The position numbers and the translations under genes were made by a program. A stretch of DNA of 64,000 bases from IMG/VR virus record IMGVR_UViG_3300012953_000016, positions 59,516 through 123,515 of that record. One strand, written 5' to 3'. The number at the start of each line of letters is the position of its first letter. The stretch's first letter is position 1. The stretch is from a virus. Shown here piece after piece: positions 23,901 to 56,897 of the stretch. The notes beneath the pieces were generated by a model. That model had not been told where the DNA came from, searched no databases, and was given only the letters and a program-made list of their open reading frames with translations.

Positions 23901-26900
23901 CTCTGAGCATTGATCCACGAGATCCTTGTGAGTGCTCTGCTACAGAAGCTATTTTTCTGCGTGCTATATTTGAACCATAATCTACTCGGCGGCGTCCATT
24001 TTCCCTAGTAATAGAAAGTGTTTTTCTCCCATACCTTTCATTAATAGACATTGAGCCAGAAACAACATCATCGGTATATGCACCTGCATTATACCCTATA
24101 TCTTCGAGTTCGAACTTGTCGTGGACAGGTGTCTCAAACTGGAGTGCTTCATGGATTGCATCTGATGTAAGGTTCTGGTTTAGATCGCCTTGTTTCTCTT
24201 TGCCGTCCTGGATGTAGGATCCAAAAAGTGTTATCTTCATCCTCGTCTGCCTAAACCCATGCCATTCATGCCAATCTTCTGCAGGCCACTCTATAGACCC
24301 GGGTGTACCTATCGGGACATCCAGTTTGTTGACACTGTTATCATGTGCGCCTGTATATTTGACTTCGGAGCCATCCCTAGTTGAGTACCTTAGATTTGAA
24401 CCTAAGGTCATATGTGGGCCTGTTCCTTTAGTTGTTGCCCAACGATTATAAAATACCTCCGCAGACTGCCAGCCGAATACTAATTTATCATTCGGCATCA
24501 GGATGTACGGGCTATCTTGATTTTCTAGCTCAAATATATTCAGGTTAGAGTGATCATATCTTTTATGCTCATACCCAAAATCATAATATCTGTCAATTAT
24601 ATCCTTACCTGGGACTGCGTTGAATAATGCACGGGCTGATGCAATATCATTTTCCTGACCTGTTCTTGTTCCGTTATGGGACGTCTTATAGTAAGACATG
24701 TACCCATTGGTACCACCTCTTGTGCCAACAACATATGATAATCCATCATTATGTTTAATCGGTCGTTTTACTGTACCTTCCATAACATATGTACCTGAAA
24801 CGAATAAATTAGTACTTGGTGATCCATCAAAGTCTAAAAACTCGTACCTGGGTGGCGTATATGATGTGCCATCAATTGGCTTTAAGACCTCTGACTTATA
24901 AGTAGCAAAAGTATTTACTTCACGTGACAAACCAGCCTCTAAAACATCATTTATGTCAATAGGCGATTCATTAACAGAACCATGAATCGTCCACTGGCCG
25001 TATGTAACCATGGTTCTTGCAGTATGTTTTCTTGGTACTTCATTACCAGAAGAGTCATAATCAATATTAAACCATTTGTCACCTTCAGATGAACCAAACC
25101 TAGCATTATATAGTTGCCCTATATCACCGTCAGTTAAACGAGAGTTCCACAATGAAACATCTGCCATTTTTCCATCAAACAACTGGCTCGGCCGGCGGTA
25201 CCTAAAGGTCCTGTATGTCCTGGCGCCACGGCGGGTTGTCTTAAATCGGCGGAGCATCCTTGAATCATATTCTTGGCCGATTGAAACTCTGTCCATTTCA
25301 TCAAACTCAAGACTATGTTCGCCATGTAGAGGAGAGTATACACCACCAACAGCGGAAAAATCGATACCAGGGACAGATGATACATCATCCAACTTTTGAA
25401 ACCTCATCCAGTATACTGATGATCCTGAGTTTGTCGCTAAGCCGGTTTGAGCATCAGGGGTTCTCCACCCTGCTCCTCTCCATGGAGCCCAAATCCTAGA
25501 ATCATATCCTGCTGCAGTAGCAGCTACACCCGGGCCTCCGGAGGCTGCATCACTGTCAAAGGCATATCTCCATATATCATTTTGGGATCCTGGCAATGCG
25601 TGATATGTTGCGAGGTGGCAACTCATCTTTTGGCCGTTGACATATATATTCCACACAGACCCATGGGCTGGATCTATATGGTGTGTAAACCCAACATGAT
25701 GCCATTGATTATCATTAATCTCTGTAGAACCATTGTCACGTACGGTATCAGTTATAACCTTATACCATCCCCTAGTTGTTACATCATCAGCATCGATTGA
25801 GATTCCAGGAAGTGTACCAGGCGAAGCTGATGCACTAGTACGACATTTAAGTTTTAGCTCAGAAGTTGTGATTGTGTCATTTGCATCTGCCTGGACGTGG
25901 AGCTGTAACCTATACCCATCCGGCGTCACTCCTTTCATGCGAGCCTTGTCGGCTGTATCGATCATAAAGATTAACCGGTTATTTCCCAATTTTGTATTAA
26001 TAGAGAAAATAACAGGATCATTAGACTCTATATCACCATCAACCTTTACCCATGTAAAAAATGAAAAGTCAGGATATGTAGAGTGATTTGCATTATGCCA
26101 AGATTCTATATCGGAAGGTACTGTCGGCCAGTACTCATTCGCACGTGGGAGTCTAGCATAAAATCTACTAGCACCAAAGTTCATACCATATCGATACTTA
26201 TCAGGTGTTCTAGAGATTGTTTTATCATACTCCCATGGGCCATCGTCACACCACTCTGCACTACCTTGGATATATGCCGGTGCATTAACAGGGCCGGTTA
26301 CCAACAGATTATTAAAATTGTTAGGATCAACTAAGTAGCGAGCAAGCAATTTACTTGATAGTTCATAATTCCCCTTGCTGTCTCTTATCTCAAAATCCTT
26401 CTCTAAAGGACAGTCAAAGAAATAAGGATTGTTACCATTAAGGGACACATCAACATTCTTACCGGCCTTGTATACACCACTATCCATGTGGTATATTGCC
26501 TTGGCATCAATACCATCTAGTGCTGTGGACCAGACTGCAAAATCAGAAAAGCTACCAGTGTAGAGATTATCGTATGATAATTCGCCGAGATCGACGTCAT
26601 TGTCGTCATCCGCATCCTCCCAATCAACATCAGCTCCTAAAATAACGTAATCTGAGGATTCAAAATACCATGGGTAGGCAGGATTATATCCTATTGCAGA
26701 CATTAGTTCTTCAGGCGTTAATGTAACACTTACCCCACCTATGACCTTTGACTCAAGGCCGACAAATGAGTATTGTAATGAAGCAGCTCGGGCCTGCCTG
26801 CTTGTCCAGGTATGTCCTGCGCCAGTACATGTTGCACTGTCATTTTCATGCGCAGGGTCACTAGCAGAACATGTTCCGTTAATTGTATCCCAATCAAATG

Positions 26901-29900
26901 ACTCAGTCGCTGTATTCCATTTCCCATAATACGATTCATTTAAGGAGAGTGAACTAATACCGGCCTGCAATATATCCTCTACAGATATATTTGCTTCACC
27001 GATTGTTACAGCTTCAGCGGCCTCGGTCGAGTCGCCCTTACGCCAAAGTAATTCACCATCATCATTTGTAAGCTGAGGTAAATTATATTCTCCTATAAAC
27101 TCACCATCAAGCCACAACTTAAATGATTGAGTCTCGCTTGAAAATGAAAAGACAGTGTGATGCCACAGACCGTCTGTTACTGCATCAGCACTTTTTGCTC
27201 TTGTGTAAACTCTCCCAAGACCATTATCAACTAGGAACCTTAATGTGCCGTCCTTATATATTGACAACCATATTTTATTGGGTGCGCCTTTGTTAGAAGC
27301 GATTGTTAACAAGTTTGAATATTTTGCACCCGGATTTGTCGTCTTAAACCACAGGCTCTTAGAAAAACTTGAAAATGAACCAGCAGACATATCAGTTATC
27401 ATCCATGCATCTGGCCAACCTGAGGTGCCTGGTTGTACCCAACGGACAAACCATGGGGTGTTCCCACTTGAGTCAGCATTAAAATTATATGTGCTTGGAT
27501 CTATAGTTGATGCATGATCTTGCCATATACCTTGCATTGAATAATCCGGATCATGCTCAATTATATTAACCCAGTCATCCGGATCTACGTATTCTGGTGA
27601 TGAGATTGAATAACCATACTCATCGACAGCTGAGGCAACCTGAAATATTAATCCTTCATGGGCATATGTGTTGTTGTTATAGCTTTTGCCTTCCATACCA
27701 ACATCAGGGGGCTCGTTAAGATTGACGTATTGATTTGCTACTGCCTGAATCAGCTTGTACCGCACAGTCGTGACACCATACAATTTATCGCCAAAATAAA
27801 CCCTAACATTCTTTGTTATATCTTCAGACTGCCATGTCCCCGGTGCTGTCGGATCATTTGCAAAAGCAAAACCATAACCCCACGTTCCTGGCTGGTTATT
27901 GCTTGTAAAAGTCTCTAACTGTACAGGTGTACCGTCTGTGGGCCCAGAGTCTGAGTTCCAAAACCAGTCGCTTCCCGTTCCAGATGCATCTTGTGCTATA
28001 GTACTGGGTATACTTTCAAATGGATCTTTTCCTGCTAAGTCTCCAAGGCTGGAAAACATGTATGTCGTCGACTGCGACATTTTTGCTGATTTTGTATAAT
28101 CACCATGAGGAGATGCTACTGGGAACGTATCCCATACAGTCGGTGCACCGGGAGGGAATTCCCATGGAGAATCTTCTGCTAACTCAATGCTTGACGCATT
28201 AATTATCTTTAACTCTGCTAGGTCGTCGGTATCACCATACCCAGAAGATGAGGCGTCATCGACCCCATCCATATTAAGATCTGCTTTTACGCATGAATTG
28301 AACCAGTAATTGCCGGTGCCATCGGTCTCTTTGGTATCAAACCTAAACCATGCAGTTAATGCGGATGATTCATCATAATCATAGCTCGATCCATCCCACA
28401 TATACATGTTTTTTGACGGAACACTAGAGTTTTGTACAACATTCCTATCATATCTAGGTGGATACCACCTGCGGGAAGGTTCTGAGTTTGAGTTATACTC
28501 ATAGTTCCCTATCCAGTCACGTTGATTTAATATAAAGAAACTATTGATGGCTGCTTTATTATTAAATTTCTCATCTTCATTGTACCGTCTAATCTTTCCG
28601 TCTGGGCCGACATCAAACATTATCGATCGACCTGAGTAGTCTGAGCCTTCGGACCAGTCGGCTTCAAATTCCAGCACAAACTTCTCTAATATAAAAGGTT
28701 TATCGATATAATTCGACATGTCTAACAATTGGCCTGGTGAGGCGTGAAACTTCGGGTGCATTGGAAAACCAAAATTACTAATTGGTAATGCTGCAGTCAT
28801 AGAAGCAGATTGTATTATCTCTGTGCCCCTTGAAAAGCCTATGCATGCATTTTCGAAATATGTTTGCTGGAACTCAGCGTCTTTAAGTGTACCCCATGAA
28901 CCTGCAAGGCCTGCATCGTATAATGAGTTTTCATTTACAAATTTGTCCCACTGATCCTTGGTTACATAGCCAGCAGCTAATGCCTGATCCCATGAAAGTG
29001 GTTGCCTTAATTCTTTTATGTGTCGGCCTGGGCCTATCTTTTCCCACTCTTTTGTCTCAAAGTTATAATAGACCATGGAATTATATTTTTGAGAGCCATA
29101 AGGTACCCCTTCATTCGTTGCATCGTAACCGAAGCTAGTGGGAGTGTCGGTTGGCAGCTCAATCGTGAATTGCATTTTACTACGGAGGGGGGAAGAAAAA
29201 CCTTCAAATACATCAGGCGAAATTCCTTGTTCAAAAAACTCATTATCAATGTCTATATCAATTTGATCATCAATAAATGGGCCTTTCTTAAATACCGTTT
29301 GATCCTCTGTAAATCTTAAACCGGCGTCAGCAATTCCCTTCCTTGTTGCACCAATAGTTACTAGTCCTGATTCTATTAACGTTCTTTCATAGTCATCAGA
29401 ATATACATTTGGTGTCATGACATTCGAGTTTAGCCATGGAGATTCAATATATGCAGGGAATACAAAGTTATGCTCGCTGTATTCTCTCCATGTTTGCTCA
29501 TTCCATTCCGGGAGCGTACCGACTATTGGCAACCACCCAGTTCCCGGGTCTGCCATAAACTCGTCTTCCGTACGCCAACCCAATGATATATCAAATCTTT
29601 TTACCTCTGAGGTTGATTCATCAAACCAATATTCTCCATCATTGTATGTTGAACCATTTGTAGGGTCAGGTATACCATCATTATCATAATCTGGTAAGTA
29701 GTTCTCAGGATCCCAACCTGCAAGAAATGATGTAGTTATCTCATTAGAAGAGTTTCTATATAGTTTATTGTTGTTAATGTCTAGAGACAAATTTATGTCT
29801 GTCGTGGCAATAACGTTGTACCCGTCAGAAGAAAAATCATCATCCGGCCGGTTTGCCCAAAAAATGACATTCTCTACCGACTTTTGTGAACGAGCAGGAA

Positions 29901-32883
29901 GAGTCGTAGGGTATGAAACTAGGTGCCCATCCCCGCCTGAAAATGAACCTGTGACTTCGCCTTTTCCGCCCGGCGTGTACTTAGCTGAATTTGAAATATG
30001 AACCTTTGCCTGATTGTCGGCATGAATTTCAAGGTTCCCAACCTTACCAGGAATCGTTTGCCTTAATAGTACTCTATCTCCATCATGATGAGCTTCGATT
30101 TGTAGGCCGGAATTATTTACTGCCTTTGCAAATAATCCATTTATCTGGTTCCGGCTGCGTATTCTTCTACCGGATCTAACCTCAGTGTTTGCAGGGTTTG
30201 TTATTTTCCCCCTATTAAACTCAAAAGTTTCGCTAGTGGTGTCTTCAACATTTACTGTCCAACGATCACCGGTTGAGTGACCAGAAAATGATCCCCACTT
30301 CAACCTTATATTATTACCTGATGCATCTTCATTATCAATATCATCAAAATACCAAAATAGCCCTGTATAATTTATAACAAATTTTACCTGGCACTTACCC
30401 CATGAAACTGCAGAACCAGGTTTTATCTTAAACTGGATTGACTCTGTTGTGACGTTTATATCAGTTGTAGACAAGTGGGGTTCATTAGCCATATATTCAT
30501 ACTTGTTCCCGGGAACCTCTTCAGCAACGTGTTTTAATTCTTTCTCTGTAAATTTATGGCCATCTGCAAACGGTGCATAGGACATAACGCCATTCCACCG
30601 CCCATACGTCGCATCATATTCATACGTACCTGAATCTGATTCGCTGGCTCTATACCTCTGCGACGGCATCAACTCAAAAATAGTGTTTGAAACAGTCTCA
30701 GCGCTGCTTGAGGGATCTAAACCGTCGAATCTAACCCATGTAGGGGAAGAATCGCTGGGGTTGAGTGAATAATATATCGCATAATATTCGTCACTAGCAT
30801 TAGGGTCTGCACCTACCCTAGATACATCGCCTCTTGCGTATACATCAATATCAAATTTTAAGGGTAGGGCGGAAGATGTAGTATCAATCTCATTTAGATC
30901 AATCACCTCCGTATATATAAATCCATCATCTTCTATATTCCCATATTTCGCGTTGGTAATCGTATAACTTTTCTTCGCATTACCGGTGCCAATATACATG
31001 TCAGGTGACCAGTCAGTCCAGTTATTCCTATACCGGTAATCTTCTAAATTTGCCTTACGCCACTTAAACTTATCAGGCTTAGGTAAACCGGTTAGGACCC
31101 ACTGCCCTGTATTTACGGTCGTATTTTGATCATATACTAACTCCCCAGTCGTACCGTCTTCAGTCCCAGAGTCACTGTTCCATGGATTAGGCCAGGTGAT
31201 CTTTATACCTTCAAGTTTTTTCTCTACGCTCTCTGTCATAGTACCTGCAACTAAATTGCAACCAGTAATAAACTCTGCGTCTGAAGTTATTGGCATTTCA
31301 AATTCTAGGGATGATACATCTGGGTCCGCTACATATCCGGTGCCTGGATCAACCTCAAGTAGTACACTAAATGTGCCCAGCGATGGATCAGCACCGCCTA
31401 TTGCACTGGCAGGTTCATCAGAGCCGATTGCAGTAGAATGAGGAATTCCAATAGTACCAATAGATATTGTTAGCCTATAATCATACTCTGTAGAAAAACT
31501 ATCAATCCCTGTATATGTAGGGTCACTCCACGAAATACCGGTCCATTGTCCGGACACTTCTGGATTGTCTGTGTCTTCAAAGGTACCTGAAAATGTGGGT
31601 GTAGGCCAAGTAGAAGATTCTACTATCTCGATTTCGTAAACTTGTTCTCTGATCAGCTCCGAATTTGATTCAACAACTAAATCATCAGTAACAGTACTTT
31701 TACCAGCTGTTGCAGGAAGCAAATCTATTGACCCTGCAGAGTCAAACAGTGTTATAGTACTAGCATCACGGGGGCGGGCATAGAAATATAACCATGCTGT
31801 TGCATATGCAGAGTCAAATATAATTGTTTTCGAGTCATCAAACGGGACGGCTGGTTCATTACCTGATATGCCACCTGGTCCGGAGCGGGATATTGATGGG
31901 TATGATAAGGGTTCACAATCATACTCATGTTGAATGACTCTGACCGGTTTATTCAGGAACCCGGAGGTCATTCCGAGACTAGGGTATACCTTATTATGAT
32001 ATACTGCCCTAACCGATTCTTCTGTTAATACATCATTCCAGACAACAAACTCATGAATTTCTCCATCTAGCAATCTAGATAGTGATGTGTCATCGGGTGC
32101 TGCATTACCAATTATACATGATGACTGGTACCCTCCGGATACTCCTAAGAATGCTCCAAGTGCCGGATTCGAATTTGAAGGGTGTTTCTCTGATAATTGA
32201 CATTCTGATCCATTAATATAAATCTTTGCAGAATTATCACATGATGATGCGTCATGCACAGCCGCTATATGGAACCATACATTCGGCTCAAATATATTGC
32301 TGCTAGTTGTTGCAACATAGTCATTATCAGCATAATCGACGCGGTAGCCTATAGAATTTGTTCTATAACCCTCAGCATCATTTAACATACCTGTGTATGT
32401 AAATAATCTAATCCCATGACTACCGTATGTTGGATCCTGGCCTCCGAATTGTACTATCGTGCCACGATCACCTTCACCAGCTGAAACTATTTTTACCCAA
32501 GCAGCAAAAGAAAATCTAGATGTACCGGTGGTGCCTATTATATTATCCCACACAGTGCTATACCCAATATCAATATAAGGTATTTCAGATGAGCTATATG
32601 TTTGCAAAAACTCTACTGATGTATGTACAGTACCTGGGCCGTCGTCCGTTATTCTTCTCTTGATGTTTCCGTAATATGTACCGTCATATGAGCTATCTAA
32701 AGATGCATCAGCGACAGTAGTACCCGGGCTTATGCTGGATCCTTTGCTTTCAGAAAACTTATACCATGCGACTAGTGAACTAGCATCGCCGTCAGTATAG
32801 TGCAGGTCTCCAATCTCTGGAGAAGATACTTTATATGATTCTGTTAGTTCATAGCTTTCTAATCTACGAGGTATTTTGGGCAT
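20953..32883 (-). CDS. Giant (3976 aa) multi-LamG virion adhesin/baseplate appendage protein
   Basis: Three LamG-type domains (FSFAAWVK..WFHIAAV..IYING..GEIHEFVVWN; SLWFKT..LWHHTVFSF..FSDFAVWS; FFTWVKV..QWHHVGFT..MADVSLWN). Acidic and Ser/Thr-rich. Confidence 0.75.
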   Translation of the reverse strand: MPKIPRRLESYELTESYKVSSPEIGDLHYTDGDASSLVAWYKFSESKGSSISPGTTVADASLDSSYDGTYYGNIKRRITDDGPGTVHTSVEFLQTYSSSEIPYIDIGYSTVWDNIIGTTGTSRFSFAAWVKIVSAGEGDRGTIVQFGGQDPTYGSHGIRLFTYTGMLNDAEGYRTNSIGYRVDYADNDYVATTSSNIFEPNVWFHIAAVHDASSCDNSAKIYINGSECQLSEKHPSNSNPALGAFLGVSGGYQSSCIIGNAAPDDTSLSRLLDGEIHEFVVWNDVLTEESVRAVYHNKVYPSLGMTSGFLNKPVRVIQHEYDCEPLSYPSISRSGPGGISGNEPAVPFDDSKTIIFDSAYATAWLYFYARPRDASTITLFDSAGSIDLLPATAGKSTVTDDLVVESNSELIREQVYEIEIVESSTWPTPTFSGTFEDTDNPEVSGQWTGISWSDPTYTGIDSFSTEYDYRLTISIGTIGIPHSTAIGSDEPASAIGGADPSLGTFSVLLEVDPGTGYVADPDVSSLEFEMPITSDAEFITGCNLVAGTMTESVEKKLEGIKITWPNPWNSDSGTEDGTTGELVYDQNTTVNTGQWVLTGLPKPDKFKWRKANLEDYRYRNNWTDWSPDMYIGTGNAKKSYTITNAKYGNIEDDGFIYTEVIDLNEIDTTSSALPLKFDIDVYARGDVSRVGADPNASDEYYAIYYSLNPSDSSPTWVRFDGLDPSSSAETVSNTIFELMPSQRYRASESDSGTYEYDATYGRWNGVMSYAPFADGHKFTEKELKHVAEEVPGNKYEYMANEPHLSTTDINVTTESIQFKIKPGSAVSWGKCQVKFVINYTGLFWYFDDIDNEDASGNNIRLKWGSFSGHSTGDRWTVNVEDTTSETFEFNRGKITNPANTEVRSGRRIRSRNQINGLFAKAVNNSGLQIEAHHDGDRVLLRQTIPGKVGNLEIHADNQAKVHISNSAKYTPGGKGEVTGSFSGGDGHLVSYPTTLPARSQKSVENVIFWANRPDDDFSSDGYNVIATTDINLSLDINNNKLYRNSSNEITTSFLAGWDPENYLPDYDNDGIPDPTNGSTYNDGEYWFDESTSEVKRFDISLGWRTEDEFMADPGTGWLPIVGTLPEWNEQTWREYSEHNFVFPAYIESPWLNSNVMTPNVYSDDYERTLIESGLVTIGATRKGIADAGLRFTEDQTVFKKGPFIDDQIDIDIDNEFFEQGISPDVFEGFSSPLRSKMQFTIELPTDTPTSFGYDATNEGVPYGSQKYNSMVYYNFETKEWEKIGPGRHIKELRQPLSWDQALAAGYVTKDQWDKFVNENSLYDAGLAGSWGTLKDAEFQQTYFENACIGFSRGTEIIQSASMTAALPISNFGFPMHPKFHASPGQLLDMSNYIDKPFILEKFVLEFEADWSEGSDYSGRSIMFDVGPDGKIRRYNEDEKFNNKAAINSFFILNQRDWIGNYEYNSNSEPSRRWYPPRYDRNVVQNSSVPSKNMYMWDGSSYDYDESSALTAWFRFDTKETDGTGNYWFNSCVKADLNMDGVDDASSSGYGDTDDLAELKIINASSIELAEDSPWEFPPGAPTVWDTFPVASPHGDYTKSAKMSQSTTYMFSSLGDLAGKDPFESIPSTIAQDASGTGSDWFWNSDSGPTDGTPVQLETFTSNNQPGTWGYGFAFANDPTAPGTWQSEDITKNVRVYFGDKLYGVTTVRYKLIQAVANQYVNLNEPPDVGMEGKSYNNNTYAHEGLIFQVASAVDEYGYSISSPEYVDPDDWVNIIEHDPDYSMQGIWQDHASTIDPSTYNFNADSSGNTPWFVRWVQPGTSGWPDAWMITDMSAGSFSSFSKSLWFKTTNPGAKYSNLLTIASNKGAPNKIWLSIYKDGTLRFLVDNGLGRVYTRAKSADAVTDGLWHHTVFSFSSETQSFKLWLDGEFIGEYNLPQLTNDDGELLWRKGDSTEAAEAVTIGEANISVEDILQAGISSLSLNESYYGKWNTATESFDWDTINGTCSASDPAHENDSATCTGAGHTWTSRQARAASLQYSFVGLESKVIGGVSVTLTPEELMSAIGYNPAYPWYFESSDYVILGADVDWEDADDDNDVDLGELSYDNLYTGSFSDFAVWSTALDGIDAKAIYHMDSGVYKAGKNVDVSLNGNNPYFFDCPLEKDFEIRDSKGNYELSSKLLARYLVDPNNFNNLLVTGPVNAPAYIQGSAEWCDDGPWEYDKTISRTPDKYRYGMNFGASRFYARLPRANEYWPTVPSDIESWHNANHSTYPDFSFFTWVKVDGDIESNDPVIFSINTKLGNNRLIFMIDTADKARMKGVTPDGYRLQLHVQADANDTITTSELKLKCRTSASASPGTLPGISIDADDVTTRGWYKVITDTVRDNGSTEINDNQWHHVGFTHHIDPAHGSVWNIYVNGQKMSCHLATYHALPGSQNDIWRYAFDSDAASGGPGVAATAAGYDSRIWAPWRGAGWRTPDAQTGLATNSGSSVYWMRFQKLDDVSSVPGIDFSAVGGVYSPLHGEHSLEFDEMDRVSIGQEYDSRMLRRFKTTRRGARTYRTFRYRRPSQLFDGKMADVSLWNSRLTDGDIGQLYNARFGSSEGDKWFNIDYDSSGNEVPRKHTARTMVTYGQWTIHGSVNESPIDINDVLEAGLSREVNTFATYKSEVLKPIDGTSYTPPRYEFLDFDGSPSTNLFVSGTYVMEGTVKRPIKHNDGLSYVVGTRGGTNGYMSYYKTSHNGTRTGQENDIASARALFNAVPGKDIIDRYYDFGYEHKRYDHSNLNIFELENQDSPYILMPNDKLVFGWQSAEVFYNRWATTKGTGPHMTLGSNLRYSTRDGSEVKYTGAHDNSVNKLDVPIGTPGSIEWPAEDWHEWHGFRQTRMKITLFGSYIQDGKEKQGDLNQNLTSDAIHEALQFETPVHDKFELEDIGYNAGAYTDDVVSGSMSINERYGRKTLSITRENGRRRVDYGSNIARRKIASVAEHSQGSRGSMLRGVRVIDSFERYYDTVVASPAAYHGFNGNGILEWSSPWFNGGTKQRSLCFGEPRPSDMKVVVPEKTIIRCREEGWYEDLPQGVIKLTFSRLWTADYLYGNYSLPYYEHAPDSNTSGDKTVAYAKLHSVPWYISTEVKTDFLYAAHNNGTSPGKWFYQLADITSSYDPAQTVDGTRYEYKPYAAGQNYMFTTSKETISEIDKDNHLRETYFSIYDANGDLHVVHLDWGDVASPEASNNVITVSLEGWDTGDNGWSPGIPSSLLSEYNVDLDGTGGSANDSLDLIQKQYNDDITGWSSSSASDLNAIKLNEDDLHPSGDMYMPADALANRVGAAINSSSMFEVLEVESSPGVYAFEDAEYKVGYSTYSIYVRTISGGLTAADPSGTSNSTEGGGIPGIHYHSPEIDSSTLYRNYYRYISTNSAAIVSCKYLAPDLREEGPLAYNNWGMVQEISNDRITFTDSGTPDAGTLATTTVDTSSEGDGYDIGAIAGDIGLSSSVTGVSEYIQNLRPNNPDQFRRQLPVIEEKDGFERISDYTLDGCFMQIHDAKDNAYNIWYKLDDDNGQAPAPPTTSGILVTIDTVPPGAPASTIARETMLALSGSHSDKFELFYNDGDDYFTVLNTQDGSTKDADSTIMGLPTTTGFYLTDESGAEYDNQTIRWSWTGGIGFFSFAAQAVDTESYAVGKTPEDPAGEEYWHGDPIQEGVDPYHVNTNSTIDAYWLGSYPFEPKYSSLKRGRTNKDNTSWNVTEWDDETGEFVETTTEQTGFSSIIITGSNMPSIINDPTLEAVDENGALLSTGSSYPVLTVIGDGSPQPIGSRYDISAKTSENFLKFYFGTGDNWQKNPSIEIVTIYSDGYDWPSAIPKIRGWKYGLRSALPENTNAVYSHNSYGQFRDLLEQRKDSRFYRKFSRGPWAGRSLVTSAPVRCRFVSEDGVLTTPEKTWSQNLSRFCTSSLPYFDDGRPRNREYPINEDELNTVFTTIKG

Positions 32884-33037
32884 CTCTTTTGTCCTATCTC
32901 ACGAGGCTATCAATATTATAATCTAAATTTAGCTATTGTTATCTGATTAATCATAACGTCGCTTGGTGTACATAATTTTACTTTCATACACAAATAATTA
33001 GGACTTTCGATAGAAAGTAGGCTTGTATTTACAAGAC

Positions 33038-33065
33038 AAAAAAAAGACCCCGCCGGAGCGGGGCC
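33038..33065 (-). terminator. Rho-independent terminator
   Basis: The minus strand reads GGCCCCGC-TCCG-GCGGGGTC followed by T8. Confidence 0.9.
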
Positions 33066-33518
33066 TGACGTTTTACCGCCTGTTAACTTATTTTCCTCGG
33101 GGCTTACGCCCTTTCCTTGCTATCTCCCCCGCCTCTCGACAGGTTCGGTAATTGTTTAAGTCAACTCCTATTCCCATAGGGATTGGGTTGATGTAATTTT
33201 CCTGGATGAAAAATTAAAATATTGTCTCCAATATCCCAAACAGCAGGGTCTCTTGTTCTTGTACTTAATTTCTTGACCTGATGATTAAAAGTTTTAATAG
33301 AGCCTATTAAGCTCGCTGTAGAATTTTGAATTTGTAACTTATCACGAAGAAAATTTTATTCGTCACCGAACACAACCAACCGTAATTGAGTAATTCTATC
33401 CACAATTTCATTTATTCTTCATTCCCTTACTCTCGTTCCTCCTCCTAGCCCTGCTGCCGCTCCTAAACAAATGCGACAGCGCAAATAATCCCATGGTGTT
33501 CAACCAGTTGCCCAATTG
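33038..33518 (-). ncRNA. Candidate large structured non-coding RNA (~480 nt), family not recognised
   Basis: No credible ORF. At least 9 hairpins, four with GNRA loops on the minus strand, G-U pairs favouring that strand, two crossing long-range helices and a terminator at the 3' end. Confidence 0.6.
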
Positions 33519-33617
33519 TACATAGTTATCATAAGACAGTCTATCTTAATAAGAAAGCTATTGGAATCTTTACCTCCTCAGATTGCTAATGACCTGATCA
33601 TATATATTGCACCGGAG

Positions 33618-36600
33618 TTATTTTTTCCAACCGCCAAACGTAATACTATCAGTTCCAGATGGCATATCGTTATATATCATTCCAGCAGCAGACGAAATGT
33701 GATCATGAGGACGCAATTCGCTAGTAGACATATTCATTGATGATACAACATCATTGACATGAGGGCCAGAAGAATATCCTCCACTAAAATTATTCCCTAA
33801 TACGTTACCCTTAACATCTTCATTGTAGTGATGGAATGTTACGTCTGTATTTCCAGTGGGGCCTGGGCTACCTTGTATCAATCTTATACCACATAATTTG
33901 TCATGATAAAAATATGTGTTACGTTCCTCAAGTGTGGGGCTGAGTATGAACGTATTCAAAAACACATCACTGCTAGAGAATTTTACATATGGCATCCCGG
34001 TGTTCACAGTTGTTTTTATAAGGCCTGTTTCAAGCGTTGAAGTCGGGTCTTGGTACAAATTATTCCCTGCGCTATCTGTTGCATGTTGAGTTATATTATC
34101 ATAAAGCATAGTGGCCGTTATATCAAGCGACGAATTGTTTATTTTCTCTGTCGTTGCCTGTAAAAGCTGTTTAAACGTTTTATGTCCACCGATGTCAACA
34201 TTTTCATCCTGATCCATGGAAAACGTGCGAATGTCTGAGACGTCCGTTGGGACGCTTGAATAACCTGGTTCATGGATAGAAGGTATTACGTCCCGGTTGA
34301 CTTTGTGATAGCCTAAGTTTCTGGAAGTTATCTTTAATGTGAAATGACCCCTAGACCAACCATTTTGAAGTGCTTCCTCAATAGGTGGTGAATCAGGATC
34401 ATATGCATATTGGTTAAACCAGTCAGGCGTTATCTTTACAAGTCTCTCAGAATCATAATCTGCTGTAAACCATGTACCGGCAACAGGTTCGCCAGCTGGC
34501 CAGCCGTCGTCGGGAACACCTGCCGGTAAATCGATATCAATCAAGTCCCACATATCTTCATATGCAGGAGGCTTTATGTATTCACATATAAATACCTTTG
34601 ATTGGTTCGGGTTTCTAAATTTCCTGACTGCACGAAGGGTTTTTGACATCAGCCTCTTGATAGAATCAGTATTATTGACTACAACCTCAATTAATTGTGG
34701 GTTTAGTTTCTCATAATTTTCCCAACCCTCAAAGGCATGCCACTGAAATTCATTTAGGTTTGCTTGCTCATAGCCGCCTGCAATAATCCATTCATCAAAA
34801 TCTGAAATCCCATCGCCACTAGTATCTGCCGGATGAGGCAAACCCGTATATGCGGCTATCGTCTCGCCGGCGTCAGAGGTATATAATCCCTGGCCAAGGG
34901 TATCGATACTCATTGTTTGGGTATCCGGATCTGGATCCCAACCGGTACCTTTATCAAAATCGTCTGGTGGAATATCACCATCAGAGTCGTACTTGGGGCG
35001 GGCACACTGGATTGTTAACCCTGAATCATTGGACCACCGGGGTGGCTTTACAACTCGAGTTACATATATTTCCTCAGCAATCGCCCATTCACTCTCAGAT
35101 GATGTACCAGGGTACCCTAGCTCAATAGCAGTCTTATAGCCAGATGTTACTTCATCATAATATAAAATTGTCTCTGAATCTATGTAGGCATCAAATTCAG
35201 GTGCGGTGCTACCCGGAATAGGTGTAGGGTCACCATCAGCGTTTAATTCTAGGGGATCAACAACGTTGAACCATACTGCATATCTTCCTCCGGAAACTGT
35301 ATTAAGAACATGGTCTGTGCTTTCGTCTATTGCATCAGTTATAACAAAGTGTTTTCCTGCGTAATCCTCTACACTAGGGACAGATGTTGTTATATCGGAA
35401 GGTTCAACTAGATCAGGAACAAACTCATAATATAGTGCCCACTCTTCCTCGGTAAGATCTACAAACATTATATCATCTTTGTCGACATAAGGTGCAAAAT
35501 CTGAGGCAGGTGTCGGCGCCGTTGAGTATGCCGCGAAACTGTTTGTGCCGTCCGTCCATAGCTTGTTTCCTAGCGTGTCTCTTTTTTGAAATGTATTATC
35601 AACATCAGGAAATCTTATGTAGTAAGTTTCAGGGCGTAGGATTGAGATTAGCTCTTCCCCATCATTCTCTAATATACCATCATTATCAAATTCAAAGCGC
35701 TTTTTACTGCCGGAAGAATCTTCTAATGTAAATGCCTGCCCATTTAATGTTCGGAGGTATTCTATTTCCCAATTAGGTGATGGCGTCCAGGTGTGGGCAG
35801 CACCCTCACATGCTGCTTGATCTGTATTATGTGCTGTAACCCCACTTGAACAAGATCCATACGTTTCATCTATTACCTGACCTGAATAGTTGAATACTAA
35901 AGAACCGGAAGCATATAGGCTACTATCGTCTAGATCTTTTAAGTTGTTAGTAACATGCTCTTTGTATGTTGTTTCTACAAACGGACTAATCTTAGATTCT
36001 TGCCAGGTTAGGTAACCAGGGAGGGGAGCACAGCCGACTGAATCTTCGTGGGTTTTAGCTATAGCCTCGAATTGCCATACATCACCTGAATTGTGGCCCT
36101 GGTTATTGTCAAAAACTGCATATAATCCATGATCTAGATCAAGCCTGCCCGCGCGTCGCGCGAAGAGAAACGACAATTTCACCGCATTAATCAGTCCGAT
36201 ATCAGCGGTGACCGCGGGGGAGGACCACACACGAAACTTAATCGTGGAGGCTGTAAAGAACGGTATTATGGGTGATGGGGTCGTGGGTGTAGATGAATAA
36301 GTCCAGTGGGGAGTCTGTGTGTATTCATGAGTTGCATCTTCGCCTGCAGGGTGCGAGTCATTATTCAATTGAATTATTCCACCATCATCAATATCTATCC
36401 ATGCAGAGCCGTCATGAAACTGAATTTTATAATACTCGGTAGGGTCATTAATGTCGCCGCGGCCAAAGGCTTTAAGCGTAACAGCAGTGGTACCACCTGG
36501 AATTTCTAGAAATTGATATCCTGATACTGTCGTAGAGCCCAAGTTGGAGAATGTTAAAACAATCTCAGTCTCAGATGTTGATGTGTTTGATAACTCTATA

Positions 36601-39600
36601 GAGTCAGACCACACGCCGTCAGATTTCGACCATTGGAACTTGTCGTACGTAGATGATGATGATACCGGATATGCGGCAGCACAGCGAATAAAATATGTCT
36701 CAGCACCAGCACCAGCAGCAATAACGTAATCACCCAATATTGTCAAGTCATTTATCCCCGCACCATCAAATAACGGTGTACGTGTAAATCCTTCAACAGA
36801 AGGACTTGATTCCATATGTTCTACACCATCTTCATAAGGCTCAAAGTATGTCCTGTCGTTGTCAATGAATTGAGTTATAGGATTTGATCTTCTACGAGAA
36901 TCTTCCGCTACGTCGGATTGTAGTATCCCCTTTATATCATGAGCAATAAAATATGCATCCGGTGAATTACGGGATGCTCTGCTCCTAATCTCTAGGGGTT
37001 CTAACACTCCATCATATTGATCCGGATCTTTCATGCTTACATTTGACATAATGACCGGGTATATGAGCGACCCAACATCATCCTGAATGTAAGCAACAGG
37101 GCCAGCTAAGCACTGTTCTATGCCATCATCATTCGTTTGCCGGTATCCCCTGCTAAGACTTTGCATGTCTTCATAAGGCAGAAATGCACTTACGACTTTT
37201 GTGATACCAGGTTGGGTTGGTGTATATGGTTCCTCAGAAACACTTACATTTAATGATGTATCAGCATCTGGGTGCGTTACATCTTGAACTGGAGGTAATA
37301 CTGTACCTGCTATCGTATTTGTGATGTCAACATAAAAGTCAGTATCACCATCATCAACTAGCGAAATAGTAAATGCATCTTCTGAAGATGTAGTAGGTAA
37401 ACTTATGTTGTCATTTTCGTCAAATACGTCGGTATTGATAATACCATGCGCGAGGCACGTAATACGAACAACAGACGAATCTTCATCTGAAATTTCTGCT
37501 ACAAAATAATCATTTATATTTCCTGCTACAATTGCCTGATAAACAGGGTTTCCAGCATTATCGGTGTTTACCTGTACGTACTTTTTACCAGAATCATATT
37601 TGCTGCTGTTAATTCTATCAACCAACCTCTGGGCAACAATGCCAGCAGTATCGTAGCTATCAATAGAAACCCGTATAGAACCACCATTATAAGAAACGTC
37701 AGGATTATTATCGGCATCCACAGCAAAGACTGGGTCTAGTAGTCCATCATCACCAGGATCAGCAGAAAGTTGTGCTGTGTCGAACCAAACATAAAAGTTT
37801 TTATTTGGGTGAGGCAAATAGAAATATGCTGCTTGTGCTATTTTATGAGTGAATGACTTAACAGCTATATAGCCTTCATTACCCATCCATTCTAGCTCTG
37901 TTATATCTTCCCAACCAGGAGAATCATAATTAAACCATAAGGCCGGGTCCATTTCATCATCTTCTTTCCCTTCAGCCCGGGACGTCGTTATTATAGTCCT
38001 CCCGGCAACTGTAACATCATTAGCCCATAGTGTGTGATTATCTGAATCGTAGTTGTTATTTGTTGGAGAAAGAACATCAAACCCTACTAAATCAGCAGAA
38101 AATTCCTCAACTGATGATTCTAGTCTTTTCCATATTAATTTTCCATCCACTTCCTTCTGCGGGATGTTTGTAAATAGTTCGGTAATGTTCGGTTCATAAT
38201 TAGATACATCTACGCTTCCACCTTTTACTCTCCACGTAGCGCCGGGGGCATCTAAATCATAGTCTAGCCATGTCTGCTCAGTATAATCGAATAGCTTCCC
38301 TGTTTTCTCTTCAGCAACACAATTAATATCATATGTACCGTAATTATAGACAATTCTTTTCTCTGCAGTGAATCTTTGGCTAATCAATGCGCTGTCGGAA
38401 ACAGCAAAGACTAAAGAGTCGCATGTATAGTCTCTATCCCTATCCGGTAAATCGATCCCGGGGCGCAAGAGTTCAACATCAACCGGTGCGTTGCCTTTGT
38501 GGGGTGAAACATTATCTAAATCTGTGGTCTCTGGCAAAACTGGCGGAGGCGTTATTATTGGGCCGTAATCTCGCTGCATAACACGAATTATATTTTGGTT
38601 TGCAGGGGTTGATGTCATAAATGGAACTATAAACTGTTCGCTATTATGAATCTCTTGATTGGTAAGATATGCCATTGTACGGTCAATGGATTGCGGGTAG
38701 CATTTTACCTCTAATGTATGTCCATATGTTGTAGCAGTCTCAAGATGCGCGGCATAACCCTCCGGTAATGAATAGGACCATAGGTCATAAAACTTTGTTG
38801 TTGCTGTTGAGGTAGGCATTGTAGGTATCTTTGTAATGCCGGCAACATTATACCATATTAAGTGAGGCGAATTTGCGTCAACGCCGACATACGGCTTATA
38901 GTTGTCATTCCACTCAGAGACTACGATGCCTTCATCATCTACCTGCCCTATCTCATAAACTGTTAGCCCTTCGTCATTAGACCATAGCTGGTTACTAGCA
39001 TCGATAGTGAACCCAAGATCTGCATGTGTGAAGGGATCTTCTAGGATTACTGCTGGATACCAGTATCTAGTAGGATTAAATAGAAATATAAAGTTGCCAA
39101 CATAATGTGATGTTATATTATCATCGTCAAGAACACGTTGACAGTAACCTAGACTTCCATGGGTCCTTAACCAGCATTGAAAATCTGTTGGTAGGTCGCC
39201 ACTATCCTCTGAAACCTGTACCTTTCCTGGCTTTTGCAGGTTAACTTGAACTATAAAGTTATCGTTATCATCAAGTACTGCAGTGACATCATCATCAACT
39301 TTTGCACCCTGGTAGAATGGATGAGCTGGATTTAATAGGGCAGCTGGAATATTGCGGTTTAGCCTCTCAATAATCTTAAGCGTAACATCTTTTGCCTTAT
39401 CATACCGATTAATGTGTACAAATACAAGATCAGGAGTTTGCCGGGCCTTTAGATCACCGGTATCAACATCAGTTGGTATGGGTGAAATTGCTGCCGGCAG
39501 AGAGCTATTAAAGGGTGTAGCACCTAAGACATCAGTGACATTAAATTTGATACAAAAGCATCGGAAATCAAAATCATATATAGTAAACCATCTATTGTGA

Positions 39601-56889: not shown

Positions 56890-56897
56890 TTATACCC

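What the first reader, a model, noticed from the sequence alone, without database searches (positions are those of the whole stretch)
33038..33518. Candidate novel ~480-nt pseudoknotted ncRNA embedded in the tail/baseplate operon
Seen on the minus strand, in the largest non-coding gap of the window. Four GNRA hairpins: CAAUUGG-GCAA-CUGGUUG (33501-33518), GAUAUUG-GAGA-CAAUAUU (33218-33235), CCUGUC-GAGA-GGCGGG (33128-33143) and GGGC-GUAA-GCCC (33100-33111). Further stems lie at 33453-33480, 33294-33310, 33194-33216 and 33161-33191. Two long-range helices, CAGCAGGG/CCCUGCUG (33449-33456 with 33241-33248) and GUUCGGUGA/UUACCGAAC (33363-33371 with 33143-33151), cross each other in pseudoknot order. 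Linkers are purine-rich. The first hairpin begins a few nt after a late-promoter-like motif and the element ends in a strong terminator. Established: phages encode large structured RNAs such as GOLLD, ROOL, RNase P RNA, tmRNA and phi29 pRNA. I could not find tmRNA, RNase P or group I/II hallmark sequences here. Inference: an independently transcribed late RNA, possibly a structural or assembly RNA or an anti-defence decoy.
Basis: partly seen in the sequence, partly recalled or inferred. Interest (0 to 1): 0.85.

Follow-up and report, generated by a model that had tools for sequence, protein, structure and literature searches.

The report
Abundant structured RNA of marine phage
A half-kilobase stretch between two giant tail-fibre-like genes of an uncultivated marine jumbo phage is found in seawater RNA libraries as a discrete, abundant, hairpin-rich RNA with no credible reading frame and no match to any known RNA family, so it is a good candidate for a new phage RNA whose job is still unknown.

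Summary
The core observation holds. The 734-nt gap 32884-33617 is the largest in the whole 123.5-kb contig. Its minus strand carries six GNRA-capped hairpins. Shuffles give 0.55 on average; 0 of 200 shuffles and 0 of 256 genome windows reach six. A strong terminator follows.

New evidence comes from marine metatranscriptomes of two studies. Each holds one contig over just this stretch: 33107-33595, identical to the window, depth 29, nothing on the flanks; and 33077-33582, depth 393 against 2-5.5 on the flanks, with sequencing adapter joined at 33582. DNA runs cover RNA and flanks evenly.

A natural variant differs at 4.2% of letters (flanking gene pieces 7.6-11.7%). It keeps the hairpins and carries 1- and 2-nt deletions that break two of the three candidate reading frames.

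No Rfam family, Pfam or PHROG family, or homologue was found. Two related phages lack the insert.

The "pseudoknot" helices are at chance level, and one conflicts with the variant. Folding energy is unremarkable against genome background, and covariation is only suggestive.

Verdict: a real, lineage-specific, roughly 0.5-kb non-coding RNA. Its function is unknown; a protein- or ribosome-binding decoy or scaffold is my guess.

The parts
33038..33595 (-). Largest extent of the RNA (about 558 nt): from the upstream end of the longest RNA-library contig to the end of the terminator's U run
   Evidence: X3 contig 33107-33595 (489 nt, no differences, depth 29.1). X12 contig 33077-33582 (depth 392.7). 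The 3' end at the terminator is inferred; the contigs stop 39-69 nt short of it.
33599..33608 (-). AT-rich box AATATATATG directly after the stop codon of the upstream gene; candidate -10-like promoter element for the RNA (inference)
   Evidence: Sequence. It lies 4-9 nt upstream of the X3 contig end. A like box follows the same stop codon in relative L006. It resembles, but does not equal, TATATTTA, whose 3 of 3 minus-strand copies lie in the 4% non-coding DNA.
33581..33582 (-). Physical end of cDNA molecules in run X12 (5' end of the minus-strand RNA, primary or processed)
   Evidence: table 7: the letters GATCGGAAGAGCACACGT are joined directly behind 33582 in the depth-393 contig. That these letters are Illumina adapter is my recall.
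33501..33518 (-). Hairpin H1, 7 pairs, GCAA loop
   Evidence: P 0.97. In the variants two U.G pairs become U-A and C-G.
33453..33480 (-). Hairpin of 8 pairs with a 12-nt loop ending in AGGA; invariant in the variants
   Evidence: P 0.78; no difference listed.
33398..33452 (-). Purine-rich tract (UAGGAGGAGGAACGAGAGUAAGGGAAUGAAG...), mostly unpaired or only weakly paired in the fold; part of the invariant block 33398-33503
   Evidence: X12 and X7 show no difference at 33398-33503.
33337..33391 (-). Three-tier extended hairpin capped by the GUGA hairpin 33372-33357
   Evidence: P 0.82-0.95. In the variant a 2-nt deletion plus substitutions give a 4-pair GAAA hairpin, and U-A becomes U.G at 33374/33355.
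33300..33314 (-). Hairpin of 6 pairs, 3-nt loop, invariant
   Evidence: P 0.91.
33161..33239 (-). Three adjacent hairpins: 33239-33214 (GAGA loop), 33216-33194, and 33191-33161 (inner GGGA-capped stem). The block 33167-33281 is invariant in the variants.
   Evidence: (P 0.86-0.95).
33128..33143 (-). Hairpin H7, 6 pairs, GAGA loop. It is rebuilt in the variant lineage as a 5-pair stem with a CCCG loop.
   Evidence: one G-C to A-U double change, two U.G to C-G changes, and the loop-closing pair lost.
33100..33111 (-). Hairpin H8, GGGC-GUAA-GCCC. In the variant the stem is kept and all four loop letters change (to CCCG).
33038..33080 (-). Small hairpin 33080-33067, then the intrinsic terminator 33066-33045 (9 pairs, 7 G-C) and its U run to 33038
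   Evidence: In DNA variants G.U becomes A-U at 33064, and the loop changes from UCCG to UUCG at 33056.
32884..33037 (-). Not part of the RNA: the downstream giant gene's own promoter and leader region (ATAACA-16-TATAAT at 32942-32915), conserved at the DNA level in relative L006

Best explanation
The stretch from about 33595/33582 down to about 33038 on the minus strand is a gene for a non-coding RNA of roughly 0.5 kb. Compared with two relatives it is an accessory, moron-like insert. The insert comprises an AT-rich box right after the stop of the upstream giant gene, about twelve local hairpins (six with GNRA caps) joined by purine-rich single strands, and a strong intrinsic terminator. The downstream giant gene then uses its own conserved promoter region. 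The RNA accumulates far above the neighbouring mRNAs. SHOWN: a discrete product in RNA libraries, its hairpin-rich anatomy, sequence constraint, indels that break two of the three candidate reading frames, and absence of the insert from relatives. INFERRED: that it is a primary transcript, and that it is made late. My committed guess for mechanism, at about 0.25 on its own: it acts in trans as a stable decoy or scaffold. The GNRA-capped hairpins would give nuclease resistance and present exposed AGGAG/GGA tracts that bind a host RNA-binding partner, either the 30S anti-Shine-Dalgarno site or a CsrA-like regulator. The confidence given below is for 'real, discrete, structured non-coding RNA gene product', not for this mechanism.
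For: RNA product. Run X3 (study P3) has one 489-nt contig, 33107-33595, with 0 differences, depth 29.1, and nothing else on the 2501 bases laid. Run X12 (study P6) has one 519-nt contig, 33077-33582, at depth 392.7, against 2.0-5.5 for its four flank contigs; adapter is joined at 33582. DNA runs X7 and X2 cover RNA and flanks at similar low depth (about 3-6), and their contigs cross both RNA boundaries.
Structure. Six GNRA hairpins against 0.55 expected; 0 of 200 shuffles and 0 of 256 genome windows reach six. They are minus-strand only. Local helices have P 0.78-0.98.
Constraint. The X12 variant has 21 substitutions in 506 nt (4.2%) against 65 in 712 (9.1%) in its flank contigs (Fisher p = 0.0009). 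Blocks 33398-33503, 33167-33281 and 33515-33582 are invariant.
Pair changes, counted by hand: 6 one-sided compatible changes (5 of them G.U to Watson-Crick, which only make sense on the minus strand), 1 double compensatory, 1 broken terminal pair, and 2 loop-closing pairs lost with a tetraloop re-formed (GUGA to GAAA in one).
Not coding. No ORF of 60 aa or more. Six frames read with X at stops gave no significant match to Pfam or PHROGs; the best E-values were 0.15 and 0.41. Deletions of 2 nt (33365-6) and 1 nt (33324) in the abundant variant break the 34-aa ORF and the 64-codon open frame. The 35-aa ORF has no Shine-Dalgarno motif, whereas 48 of 67 long ORFs have one, and it has no tblastn match in phages.
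Insert. In relative L002 the stop of gene A overlaps the start of gene B. In L006 the gap is 176 nt and matches only the two ends of the window's gap.
Motifs. AGGAG occurs 5 times against 1.2 in shuffles (1 of 500 reach it; 12 motifs were tried).
Against: All RNA evidence comes from assembled contigs. These cannot show strand, true ends or level, and the tool itself rates coinciding contig ends as a weak hint. The contigs stop 39-69 nt before the terminator's U run.
Folding energy is ordinary for this genome: z = -0.68, and 54 of 256 windows fold as well.
Covariation is thin. It rests on one main variant lineage. The variant's whole-molecule MFE is no better than random letters at the same places (92 of 150 as stable). 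Per-hairpin tests are weak: for H7, 139 of 729 combinations are as stable; H2 18 of 27; H8 71 of 81. Transitions on G.U pairs are compatible by default.
The leader and 5' end of gene B (32729-33037) are even less diverged than the RNA, at about 1.6-1.9% in X7 (5 listed differences, perhaps one more, in 309 nt), so low divergence is not unique to the RNA.
GGA is not enriched over dinucleotide content: 16 against 14.5.
No homologue outside this phage lineage was found, so no family-level covariation is possible.
No partner, host or timing is known.
Confidence: 0.72

Rival explanations
1. It is a processed, unusually stable 3'-untranslated tail of the upstream giant gene's mRNA. Its hairpins and terminator only end and protect the upstream operon and insulate the downstream gene. 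It has no promoter of its own and no function in trans.
For: It begins only 23-36 nt after the stop codon of gene A and is on the same strand. The two RNA contigs end at different upstream places (33595 and 33582), as processing could give. The AT-rich box is only a partial match to the TATATTTA motif. This phage also caps other terminators with GNRA loops. Contigs cannot tell a primary 5' end from a processed one.
Against: Depth is 393 against 5.5 for the nearest gene-A contig in X12, with nothing laid at 33583-33870. In X3 gene A is absent altogether. Two relatives do without any such tail: A and B abut in one and are 176 nt apart in the other. Five hundred conserved nucleotides with invariant blocks of more than 100 nt is much more than a terminator needs.
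Confidence: 0.13
2. It is an mRNA for a very small protein: the 28-35-codon frame 33515/33494-33408, which lies almost entirely inside the invariant block 33398-33503 (its TTG-start form overruns it by 12 nt). The hairpins would serve as stabilisers.
For: From its ATG (about 33494) the frame lies inside the invariant block 33398-33503. Its stop overlaps the ATG of the next small frame (ATGA). Purine-rich Shine-Dalgarno-like motifs are present in the RNA.
Against: Neither possible start has a Shine-Dalgarno motif upstream, whereas 48 of 67 long ORFs have one. There are no changes at all, so no synonymous pattern, although the flanking genes differ by 7.6-11.7%. The next frame is broken by indels in the abundant variant. 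No Pfam or PHROG hit and no tblastn hit in phages. About 90 coding nt would not explain about 450 further conserved, hairpin-rich nt.
Confidence: 0.05
3. It is the decaying remnant of an inserted protein gene (a moron or free-standing homing endonuclease) that is still transcribed but has no function.
For: It is an insert relative to two relatives, placed between conserved genes, with promoter-like and terminator signals. A 64-codon stop-free frame without a start exists at 33355-33164.
Against: The six frames gave no Pfam match, and the two weak PHROG matches (E 0.15 and 0.41) are not significant. By my own estimate, about one stop-free frame of 64 codons is expected by chance in this much AT-rich sequence. 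The GNRA hairpin excess, the lower divergence than the coding flanks, and the hairpin-preserving changes all argue for present selection at the RNA level.
Confidence: 0.05
4. It is a new ornate RNA that works as RNA alone, folding and perhaps self-assembling through its GNRA loops in the manner of ROOL or GOLLD, or serving as a structural or assembly RNA for the giant fibre proteins.
For: Its size (about 0.5 kb), phage origin, abundance and six GNRA loops. ROOL and GOLLD are phage or prophage RNAs of unknown function that form cages (PMC12286853, passages read).
Against: No match to the ROOL or GOLLD models even at E up to 10. No supported long-range helix or pseudoknot. In the variant two of the GNRA loops are replaced by CCCG, which is hard to square with essential tetraloop docking. 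It is not near tRNA genes.
Confidence: 0.08

Closest known systems
ROOL and GOLLD RNAs (large ornate phage and prophage RNAs; Rfam families; PMC12286853, passages read)
   Same: Encoded by phages. Several hundred nucleotides long, non-coding, of unknown function, with many structured elements. GOLLD expression rises during phage lysis, according to that paper.
   Different: No match to either covariance model. Not next to tRNA genes. No supported pseudoknots or long-range helices. Known so far from one phage lineage only. Oligomerisation was not tested.
ncRNA001-004 of Pseudomonas jumbo phage PA5oct (PMC7318152, passages read)
   Same: Transcribed ORF-less regions of 236-619 nt in a jumbo phage. 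Two of them are highly expressed (up to about 5% of phage reads). They resemble nothing known, and their function is unknown.
   Different: No sequence relation was found: blastn of the gap against the phage collection gave no match. The two highly expressed PA5oct RNAs lie in the terminal-repeat region, not in the tail module. No structure or conservation analysis is available for comparison.
CsrB/RsmY/RsmZ-type protein-sponge RNAs
   Same: A chain of hairpins with GGA-containing loops and single strands, ended by an intrinsic terminator, and highly abundant. There is a weak RsmY model match at the 3' end, 33044-33118 (20.8 bits, E 0.01).
   Different: The score is far below the gathering score of 57. 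GGA density is 16 in 558 nt, not above dinucleotide expectation. From recall, CsrB has about one GGA per 17 nt. Most loops here are GNRA rather than ANGGA. The host, and whether it has CsrA, are unknown.
3'-UTR-derived stable bacterial sRNAs (class recalled from knowledge, not read here)
   Same: Starts just after a stop codon, shares the gene's strand, ends at the operon's terminator, and can far exceed the parent mRNA in level.
   Different: It is about 0.5 kb long rather than 50-150 nt. It is an insert absent from relatives. A promoter-like box sits at the right distance.

Membership tests
Any Rfam 15 family | Covariance-model score at or above the family's gathering score | tested here: not met
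   0 matches in the whole window. (901 bases, E up to 10): 13 weak matches. The best is STnc100 at 24.1 bits against a gathering score of 47. Those with E below 1 all overlap the terminator-proximal 3' end.
ROOL / GOLLD | Match to the family covariance model | tested here: not met
   Neither family appears, even at E up to 10.
ROOL / GOLLD | Usual placement near tRNA islands in phages or prophages | tested here: not met
   the only tRNA call in 64 kb is a doubtful tRNA-Asn(att) on the other strand at 14436-14526, about 18.5 kb away. The phage origin itself is met.
ROOL / GOLLD | Homo-oligomeric cage formation | not testable with these tools
   Needs native gels, SEC-MALS or cryo-EM of the transcript.
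CsrB/RsmY/RsmZ sponge RNAs | Match to a family model | tested here: not met
   RsmY: 20.8 bits against a gathering score of 57.
CsrB/RsmY/RsmZ sponge RNAs | Many GGA motifs, above background, mainly in hairpin loops | tested here: inconclusive
   16 GGA in 558 nt. Dinucleotide shuffles give a mean of 14.5, and 35% of them reach 16. Genome windows have a mean of 7.7 and a maximum of 15. Several lie in loops or linkers, but the loops are mostly GNRA.
CsrB/RsmY/RsmZ sponge RNAs | Binding of a CsrA/RsmA protein of the host | not testable with these tools
   The host is unknown.
tmRNA / tRNA-like | ARAGORN or Rfam detection | tested here: not met
Group I / group II introns, RNase P RNA, phi29 pRNA | Match to the Rfam models; for introns, interruption of a gene | tested here: not met
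   No such match. Both flanking genes are complete and separate in the window and in two relatives.
Phage moron (accessory cassette) | Present between genes that are adjacent in related phages | tested here: met
   In L002 genes A and B abut. In L006 the gap is 176 nt and matches only the two ends of the window's gap.
Phage moron (accessory cassette) | Own terminator | tested here: met
   9-pair stem with 7 G-C pairs, followed by a run of T.
Phage moron (accessory cassette) | Own promoter | tested here: inconclusive
   The box AATATATATG lies 4-9 nt upstream of the X3 contig end. It only resembles the TATATTTA motif. No transcription-start mapping was possible.
Repeat-based RNAs (CRISPR array, ToxI-like antitoxin repeats) | Tandem or spaced direct repeats | tested here: not met
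   no tandem repeat; only 11-18-nt two- or three-copy words.

The most novel reading that the evidence does not exclude
This is the first member of a new class of large phage RNAs. It would be made in great excess late in infection of a marine bacterium by a jumbo phage, and would work as RNA. One possibility is an RNA-only or RNA-protein assembly tied to the giant fibre proteins it sits between, possibly carried in the virion. Another is a ribosome or regulator decoy that takes over host translation.
Probability: 0.12. Interest if true: 0.9.

Novelty: new variant of a known kind. Interest (0 to 1): 0.68.

Why it matters
Non-coding RNAs of 0.5 kb with unknown function are rare in bacteria and phages. 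The few known classes (OLE, GOLLD, ROOL) proved structurally remarkable. Here the sequence signal, a strand-specific excess of GNRA hairpins, coincides with an RNA-library product found in two independent ocean studies, and it occurs in an uncultivated jumbo phage with a very tightly packed genome. The RNA is short enough to synthesise and test directly for fold, oligomer state, and binding to ribosomes or regulators. It is an accessory insert in a spot where related phages have nothing, which points to an adaptive, lineage-specific role in infection. It also shows that public metatranscriptome assemblies can validate candidate phage RNAs that have too few relatives for classical covariation analysis.

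Tried and rejected
Homology searches that found nothing:
- blastn ('distant' mode) of the 734-nt gap against 50,697 phage records.
- blastn against the 69.5-kb record of relative L002; best E 0.54.
- An exact 20-mer from the invariant block in IMG/VR: 0 hits.
- An exact 20-mer from hairpin 33237-33218 in 185,579 species genomes: 3 hits (L007-L009). blastn showed that only the 20-mer itself matches, so these are chance hits.
- This scan's notes by sequence returned only my own stretch.

Relatives found through gene A's C-terminus: 1 distinct record in viral contigs and 2 in metagenome contigs, one of which is the same record. Neither distinct relative carries the insert. Gene B's first 400 aa found no relative in viral contigs.

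Protein searches: gene B's first 80 aa found nothing. Gene A's last 100 aa found one 74-aa protein, P0001, at 72% identity; its DNA could not be fetched.

Relative G001, 69.5 kb: at most 3 GNRA hairpins in any 500 nt. A 582-nt 'gap' from my crude gene caller reads as an open frame from an ATG, so I judged it an artefact. It has z = -0.87 and no Rfam match.

Tests that did not discriminate:
- Whole-molecule MFE of the variant against random letters at the same places (92 of 150 as stable) or at random places (28 of 150).
- Per-hairpin enumeration for H2, H7, H8 and the terminator.
- GGA enrichment against dinucleotide shuffles.
- Complementarity of the RNA to the phage's own minus-strand transcripts: no match of 13 nt or more, and six 12-mers against 4.1 expected.

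Rejected readings:
- The pseudoknot.
- The promoter-like site 33543-33515 as the RNA's promoter, because it lies inside the RNA.
- The terminator-proximal 'switch' of note e1-6136729. Its CCUGU/ACAGG half is lost in the variant while the local hairpin is rebuilt. One X7 difference is unlisted, so this rejection is not airtight.

I laid 4 (X3, X12, X7, X2). The shares of the 18 others are not evidence. X4-X6 are the same sample as X3.

Literature: three full-text searches turned up no description of this RNA. That covers only the held library and those terms. Supplementary files were not opened.
Full report
WHERE IT LIES.
The window is bases 59516-123515 of a 123,515-base IMG/VR virus record that CheckV rates 36% complete. 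By my arithmetic that suggests a genome of about 340 kb. Nearly all ORFs are on the minus strand (75 of 79 in my crude gene call).

The neighbourhood is a tail, baseplate and fibre module:
- PHROG baseplate-wedge and tail-fibre hits.
- LamG domains in the 3976-aa protein.
- The baseplate wedge protein has only 31-33% identical relatives, in Flavobacterium and Microcystis myoviruses and in a 484-kb uncultured phage.

The finding lies in the 734-nt gap 32884-33617. This gap separates gene A (33618-41708, 2696 aa) from gene B (20953-32883, 3976 aa). It is by far the largest gap of the whole contig; the next is 320 nt.

CHECK OF THE OBSERVATION.
The four GNRA hairpins are at the stated coordinates. 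A mechanical scan for GNRA loops closed by 4 or more pairs (G.U allowed) finds six in 33038-33518 on the minus strand. Dinucleotide shuffles give 0.55 on average (0 of 200 reach six). Same-strand genome windows of 481 nt give 0.37 on average (0 of 256 reach six). Over the whole contig there are 36 minus-strand GNRA hairpins with stems of 5 or more pairs, and five of them sit within 391 nt here. None of the 18 plus-strand ones does. This strand-specific excess is the strongest purely sequence-based signal.

The terminator (9 pairs, 7 of them G-C, then a run of T) is real.

- The long-range helices are what chance gives: one perfect helix of 8 or more pairs against 1.5 in shuffles. The long-range pairs also change when the folded length changes.
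- Folding energy is z = -2.4 against shuffles on the minus strand and -0.5 on the plus strand. Against GC-adjusted windows of the same genome strand it is only z = -0.68, and 54 of 256 windows fold as well.

IS IT AN RNA?
One search of public runs listed 22 runs. Of these, 19 hold part of window:32400-34100, and 9 are on record as RNA. I laid four on 32000-34500.
- X3, a metatranscriptome of study P3, gave a single contig. It is 489 nt long, spans 33107-33595, is identical to the window, has depth 29.1, and nothing else was laid on the flanks.
- X12, a metatranscriptome of another study (P6), gave a 519-nt contig over 33077-33582 at depth 392.7. Its four contigs on the flanking genes have depths of 2.0-5.5.
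- Directly behind 33582 the X12 contig continues into GATCGGAAGAGCACACGT. I recognise this from recall as Illumina adapter. It means cDNA molecules physically end there, which is the 5' end of a minus-strand RNA.
- DNA runs X7 and X2 cover RNA and flanks at similar low depth (about 3-6). Their contigs cross both boundaries (X7 32729-33299 and 33484-33762; X2 33451-33784).

So the excess in RNA libraries is not DNA carry-over. Nor is it a more abundant organism sharing the stretch at 85% likeness or more.

Caveats, as the tool itself states: contigs give one depth figure each, show no strand, and prove no ends. The contigs also stop 39-69 nt short of the terminator's U run.

The minus strand is inferred from three things: the GNRA excess, the terminator, and the nature of the variant changes described below.

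NATURAL VARIANTS.
The X12 contig differs from the window by 21 substitutions and 5 deleted letters in 506 nt, and all of them are listed. That is 4.2%, against 65 of 712 (9.1%; single contigs 7.6-11.7%) for the same run's flank contigs (Fisher p = 0.0009). X7 DNA contigs carry the same variant states.

The changes cluster in four hairpins. The blocks 33398-33503, 33167-33281 and 33515-33582 have no changes at all.

I mapped the changes on the local helices (and by hand):
- H1 (33518-33501): two U.G pairs become U-A and C-G.
- H7 (33143-33128): CCUGUC-GAGA-GGCGGG becomes CCCAC-CCCG-GUGGG. That is one G-C to A-U double change, two U.G to C-G changes, and loss of the loop-closing pair.
- H2 (33372-33357): UGUUCG-GUGA-CGAAUA becomes a 4-pair GAAA hairpin through a 2-nt deletion and substitutions. 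Its outermost U-A pair is broken.
- The tier below H2: U-A becomes U.G.
- H8 (33111-33100): the stem is kept while all four loop letters change.
- Terminator: G.U becomes A-U, and the loop changes from UCCG to UUCG.

The tally is 6 one-sided compatible changes, 1 double compensatory change, 1 broken terminal pair, and 2 loop-closing pairs lost with a tetraloop re-formed. Five of the six one-sided changes turn G.U into a Watson-Crick pair. On the plus strand those positions would be A.C mismatches, which supports the minus strand.

This evidence is suggestive, not decisive.
- It comes from essentially one variant lineage.
- Transitions on G.U pairs are always compatible.
- The whole-molecule MFE of the variant is no better than random letters at the same places (92 of 150 as stable).
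- Exhaustive letter replacement shows many equally stable alternatives for H7 (139 of 729), H2 (18 of 27) and H8 (71 of 81). Only for H1 is the observed variant the single best of 9.
- The leader and first codons of gene B (32729-33037) are even less diverged in X7 (about 1.6-1.9%), so low divergence alone is not specific to the RNA.

NOT CODING.
- There is no ORF of 60 aa or more in the gap.
- All six frames, read with X at stops, gave no Pfam family and only two non-significant PHROG matches (E 0.15 and 0.41).
- The 34-aa ORF (33411-33307) and the start-less 64-codon frame (33355-33164) are both broken in the abundant variant, by the 2-nt deletion at 33365-6 and the 1-nt deletion at 33324.
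- The remaining 28-35-codon frame (33515/33494-33408) lies, from its ATG, inside the invariant block, so the variants say nothing about it. It has no Shine-Dalgarno motif before either possible start, whereas 48 of 67 long ORFs have one. It also has no tblastn match in the phage collection.

AN INSERT RELATIVE TO KIN.
Searches with gene A's C-terminus found two distinct related records.
- In L002 (the last 450 residues of A are 60% identical in the alignment; tblastn best segment 47-48%; B is 51% identical), the stop of A overlaps the start of B.
- In L006 (43% identical) the gap is 176 nt. Its first roughly 20 nt resemble the window's first roughly 20 nt after the stop codon, including the AT-rich box. 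Its last roughly 140 nt match window 33025-32884, which is the promoter and leader region of B and includes an identical 23-mer.

The roughly 555 nt in between are therefore an insertion in the window's lineage, or a clean loss in the relatives. The insert consists of box, RNA and terminator, which is the layout of a phage moron. The relative G001 has no comparable non-coding gap or hairpin cluster in its 69.5 kb.

WHAT IT IS NOT.
- No Rfam family reaches its gathering score anywhere in the window.
- A permissive scan of 901 bases lists 13 weak matches. The matches with E below 1 all overlap the terminator-proximal 3' end, for example STnc100 at 24.1 bits against 47 and RsmY at 20.8 against 57. 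ROOL, GOLLD, introns, RNase P, 6S and tmRNA do not appear.
- ARAGORN finds nothing here.
- There are no tandem or spaced repeats.
- There is no extended complementarity to the phage's own transcripts.
- No homologue turned up in phage records, IMG/VR or species genomes.

PROMOTER QUESTION.
The box AATATATATG (33608-33599) ends 4 nt upstream of the X3 contig's end at 33595. That is about the distance from a -10-type element to a transcription start (established knowledge, recalled). In this contig TATATTTA occurs three times on the minus strand, and all three copies lie in the 4% of DNA that is non-coding. I read it as a candidate late promoter; the comparison with T4's TATAAATA is from recall. 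The RNA's box only resembles it.

The second 5' end at 33582, in a different variant, could be a processing site. X7 shows small insertions at 33588-33589, so this leader is variable. Whether the RNA is a primary transcript therefore stays open.

HOW IT MOST LIKELY WORKS.
Shown: a discrete, abundant, conserved, hairpin-rich, ORF-poor product.

Inferred: it acts as RNA in trans. Its anatomy is a string of about twelve short, stable, mostly GNRA-capped hairpins separated by purine-rich single strands.
- AGGAG occurs five times against 1.2 in shuffles (1 of 500 reach it; 12 motifs were tried).
- GGA occurs 16 times, more than any of the 221 genome windows but not more than the dinucleotide content predicts.

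This anatomy is that of a decoy or scaffold presenting short single-stranded motifs, as CsrB/Rsm-type sponges do, or of an anti-Shine-Dalgarno binder. I give this mechanism about 0.25.

A role as a self-assembling or virion-associated RNA in the manner of ROOL and GOLLD is possible but less likely (PMC12286853, passages read). No long-range structure is supported, and two GNRA loops are replaced by CCCG in the variant.

COMPARISON AND NOVELTY.
Jumbo phages are known to make ORF-less transcripts of this size with unknown function. PA5oct has four, of 236-619 nt, and two of them are highly expressed (PMC7318152, passages read). Phages also carry the large ornate RNAs ROOL and GOLLD. This RNA fails the membership tests for every curated family tried. 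It is thus a new family within a known kind (phage-encoded large non-coding RNAs), known so far from one marine phage lineage.

Three full-text searches found no description of it. Supplementary files were not opened.

EARLIER NOTES OF THIS SCAN.
- The same stretch was noted in another window as about 550 nt (33038-33600).
- A proposed switch helix near the terminator is not kept in the variant.

No look-alike on other DNA was on record.

VERDICT.
The finding is real and worth following up. The pseudoknot and the exact boundaries are wrong. Energy and covariation are weaker than hoped. The hairpin excess, the RNA-library product seen in two studies, the sequence constraint and the frame-breaking indels together make a structured non-coding RNA the best reading (about 0.72). 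Its function is open.

Noticed in passing
window 32988-33010 (minus strand), and L006 about 4402-4433: A 23-nt word upstream of giant gene B (TCGAAAGTCCTAATTATTTGTGT) is identical in relative L006, although the flanking proteins are only 43-51% identical. About 140 nt of B's leader align at the DNA level. The word occurs once in the contig. It may be a conserved regulatory site or leader structure for the giant fibre gene.
   Followed up: partly
window 9699 (minus strand); G000:C1 about 47346 and 41770: TATATTTA occurs 3 times on the minus strand of the 123.5-kb contig, and all 3 copies lie in the 4% of DNA that is non-coding; by the script two of them lie within 80 nt upstream of an ORF start. 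It is a candidate late-promoter motif for this phage.
   Followed up: partly
G000:C1:41881-41904 and G000:C1:10878-10901 (outside the window): Two other intergenic terminator-like hairpins, each with a 10-pair stem, are capped by GNRA loops (GCAA, GGAA) and followed by runs of T. This phage seems to favour GNRA-capped terminators.
   Followed up: no
window 31960-32883 (minus strand), compared with L006 4548 onward and L002 5341 onward: Gene B's N-terminal part of about 260-300 aa, which includes a LamG domain, has no counterpart in L006. In L006, B runs from MPKI... almost directly into the conserved GFLN-PVRV block. In L002 this part is not alignable. The A/B junction looks like a hot spot for module gain, since the RNA insert lies next to it.
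   Followed up: partly
window 14436-14526 (+): ARAGORN calls a tRNA-Asn with anticodon att on the strand opposite to the genes, inside the 1546-aa ORF (11547-16187). It is probably a false call.
   Followed up: no
L012 16834-17430 (G001:C1 about 56834-57430): A 582-nt 'gap' from my crude gene caller in the relative is really an open frame starting at an ATG. It has no Rfam match and z = -0.87. This is a warning about the caller, not a feature of the DNA.
   Followed up: yes
window 33100-33143 in the variant lineage (runs X12, X7): Both 3'-domain hairpins changed their GNRA loops (GAGA and GUAA) to the same four letters, CCCG, in the same lineage. A coordinated loop swap in two hairpins 17 nt apart has no explanation yet.
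   Followed up: partly
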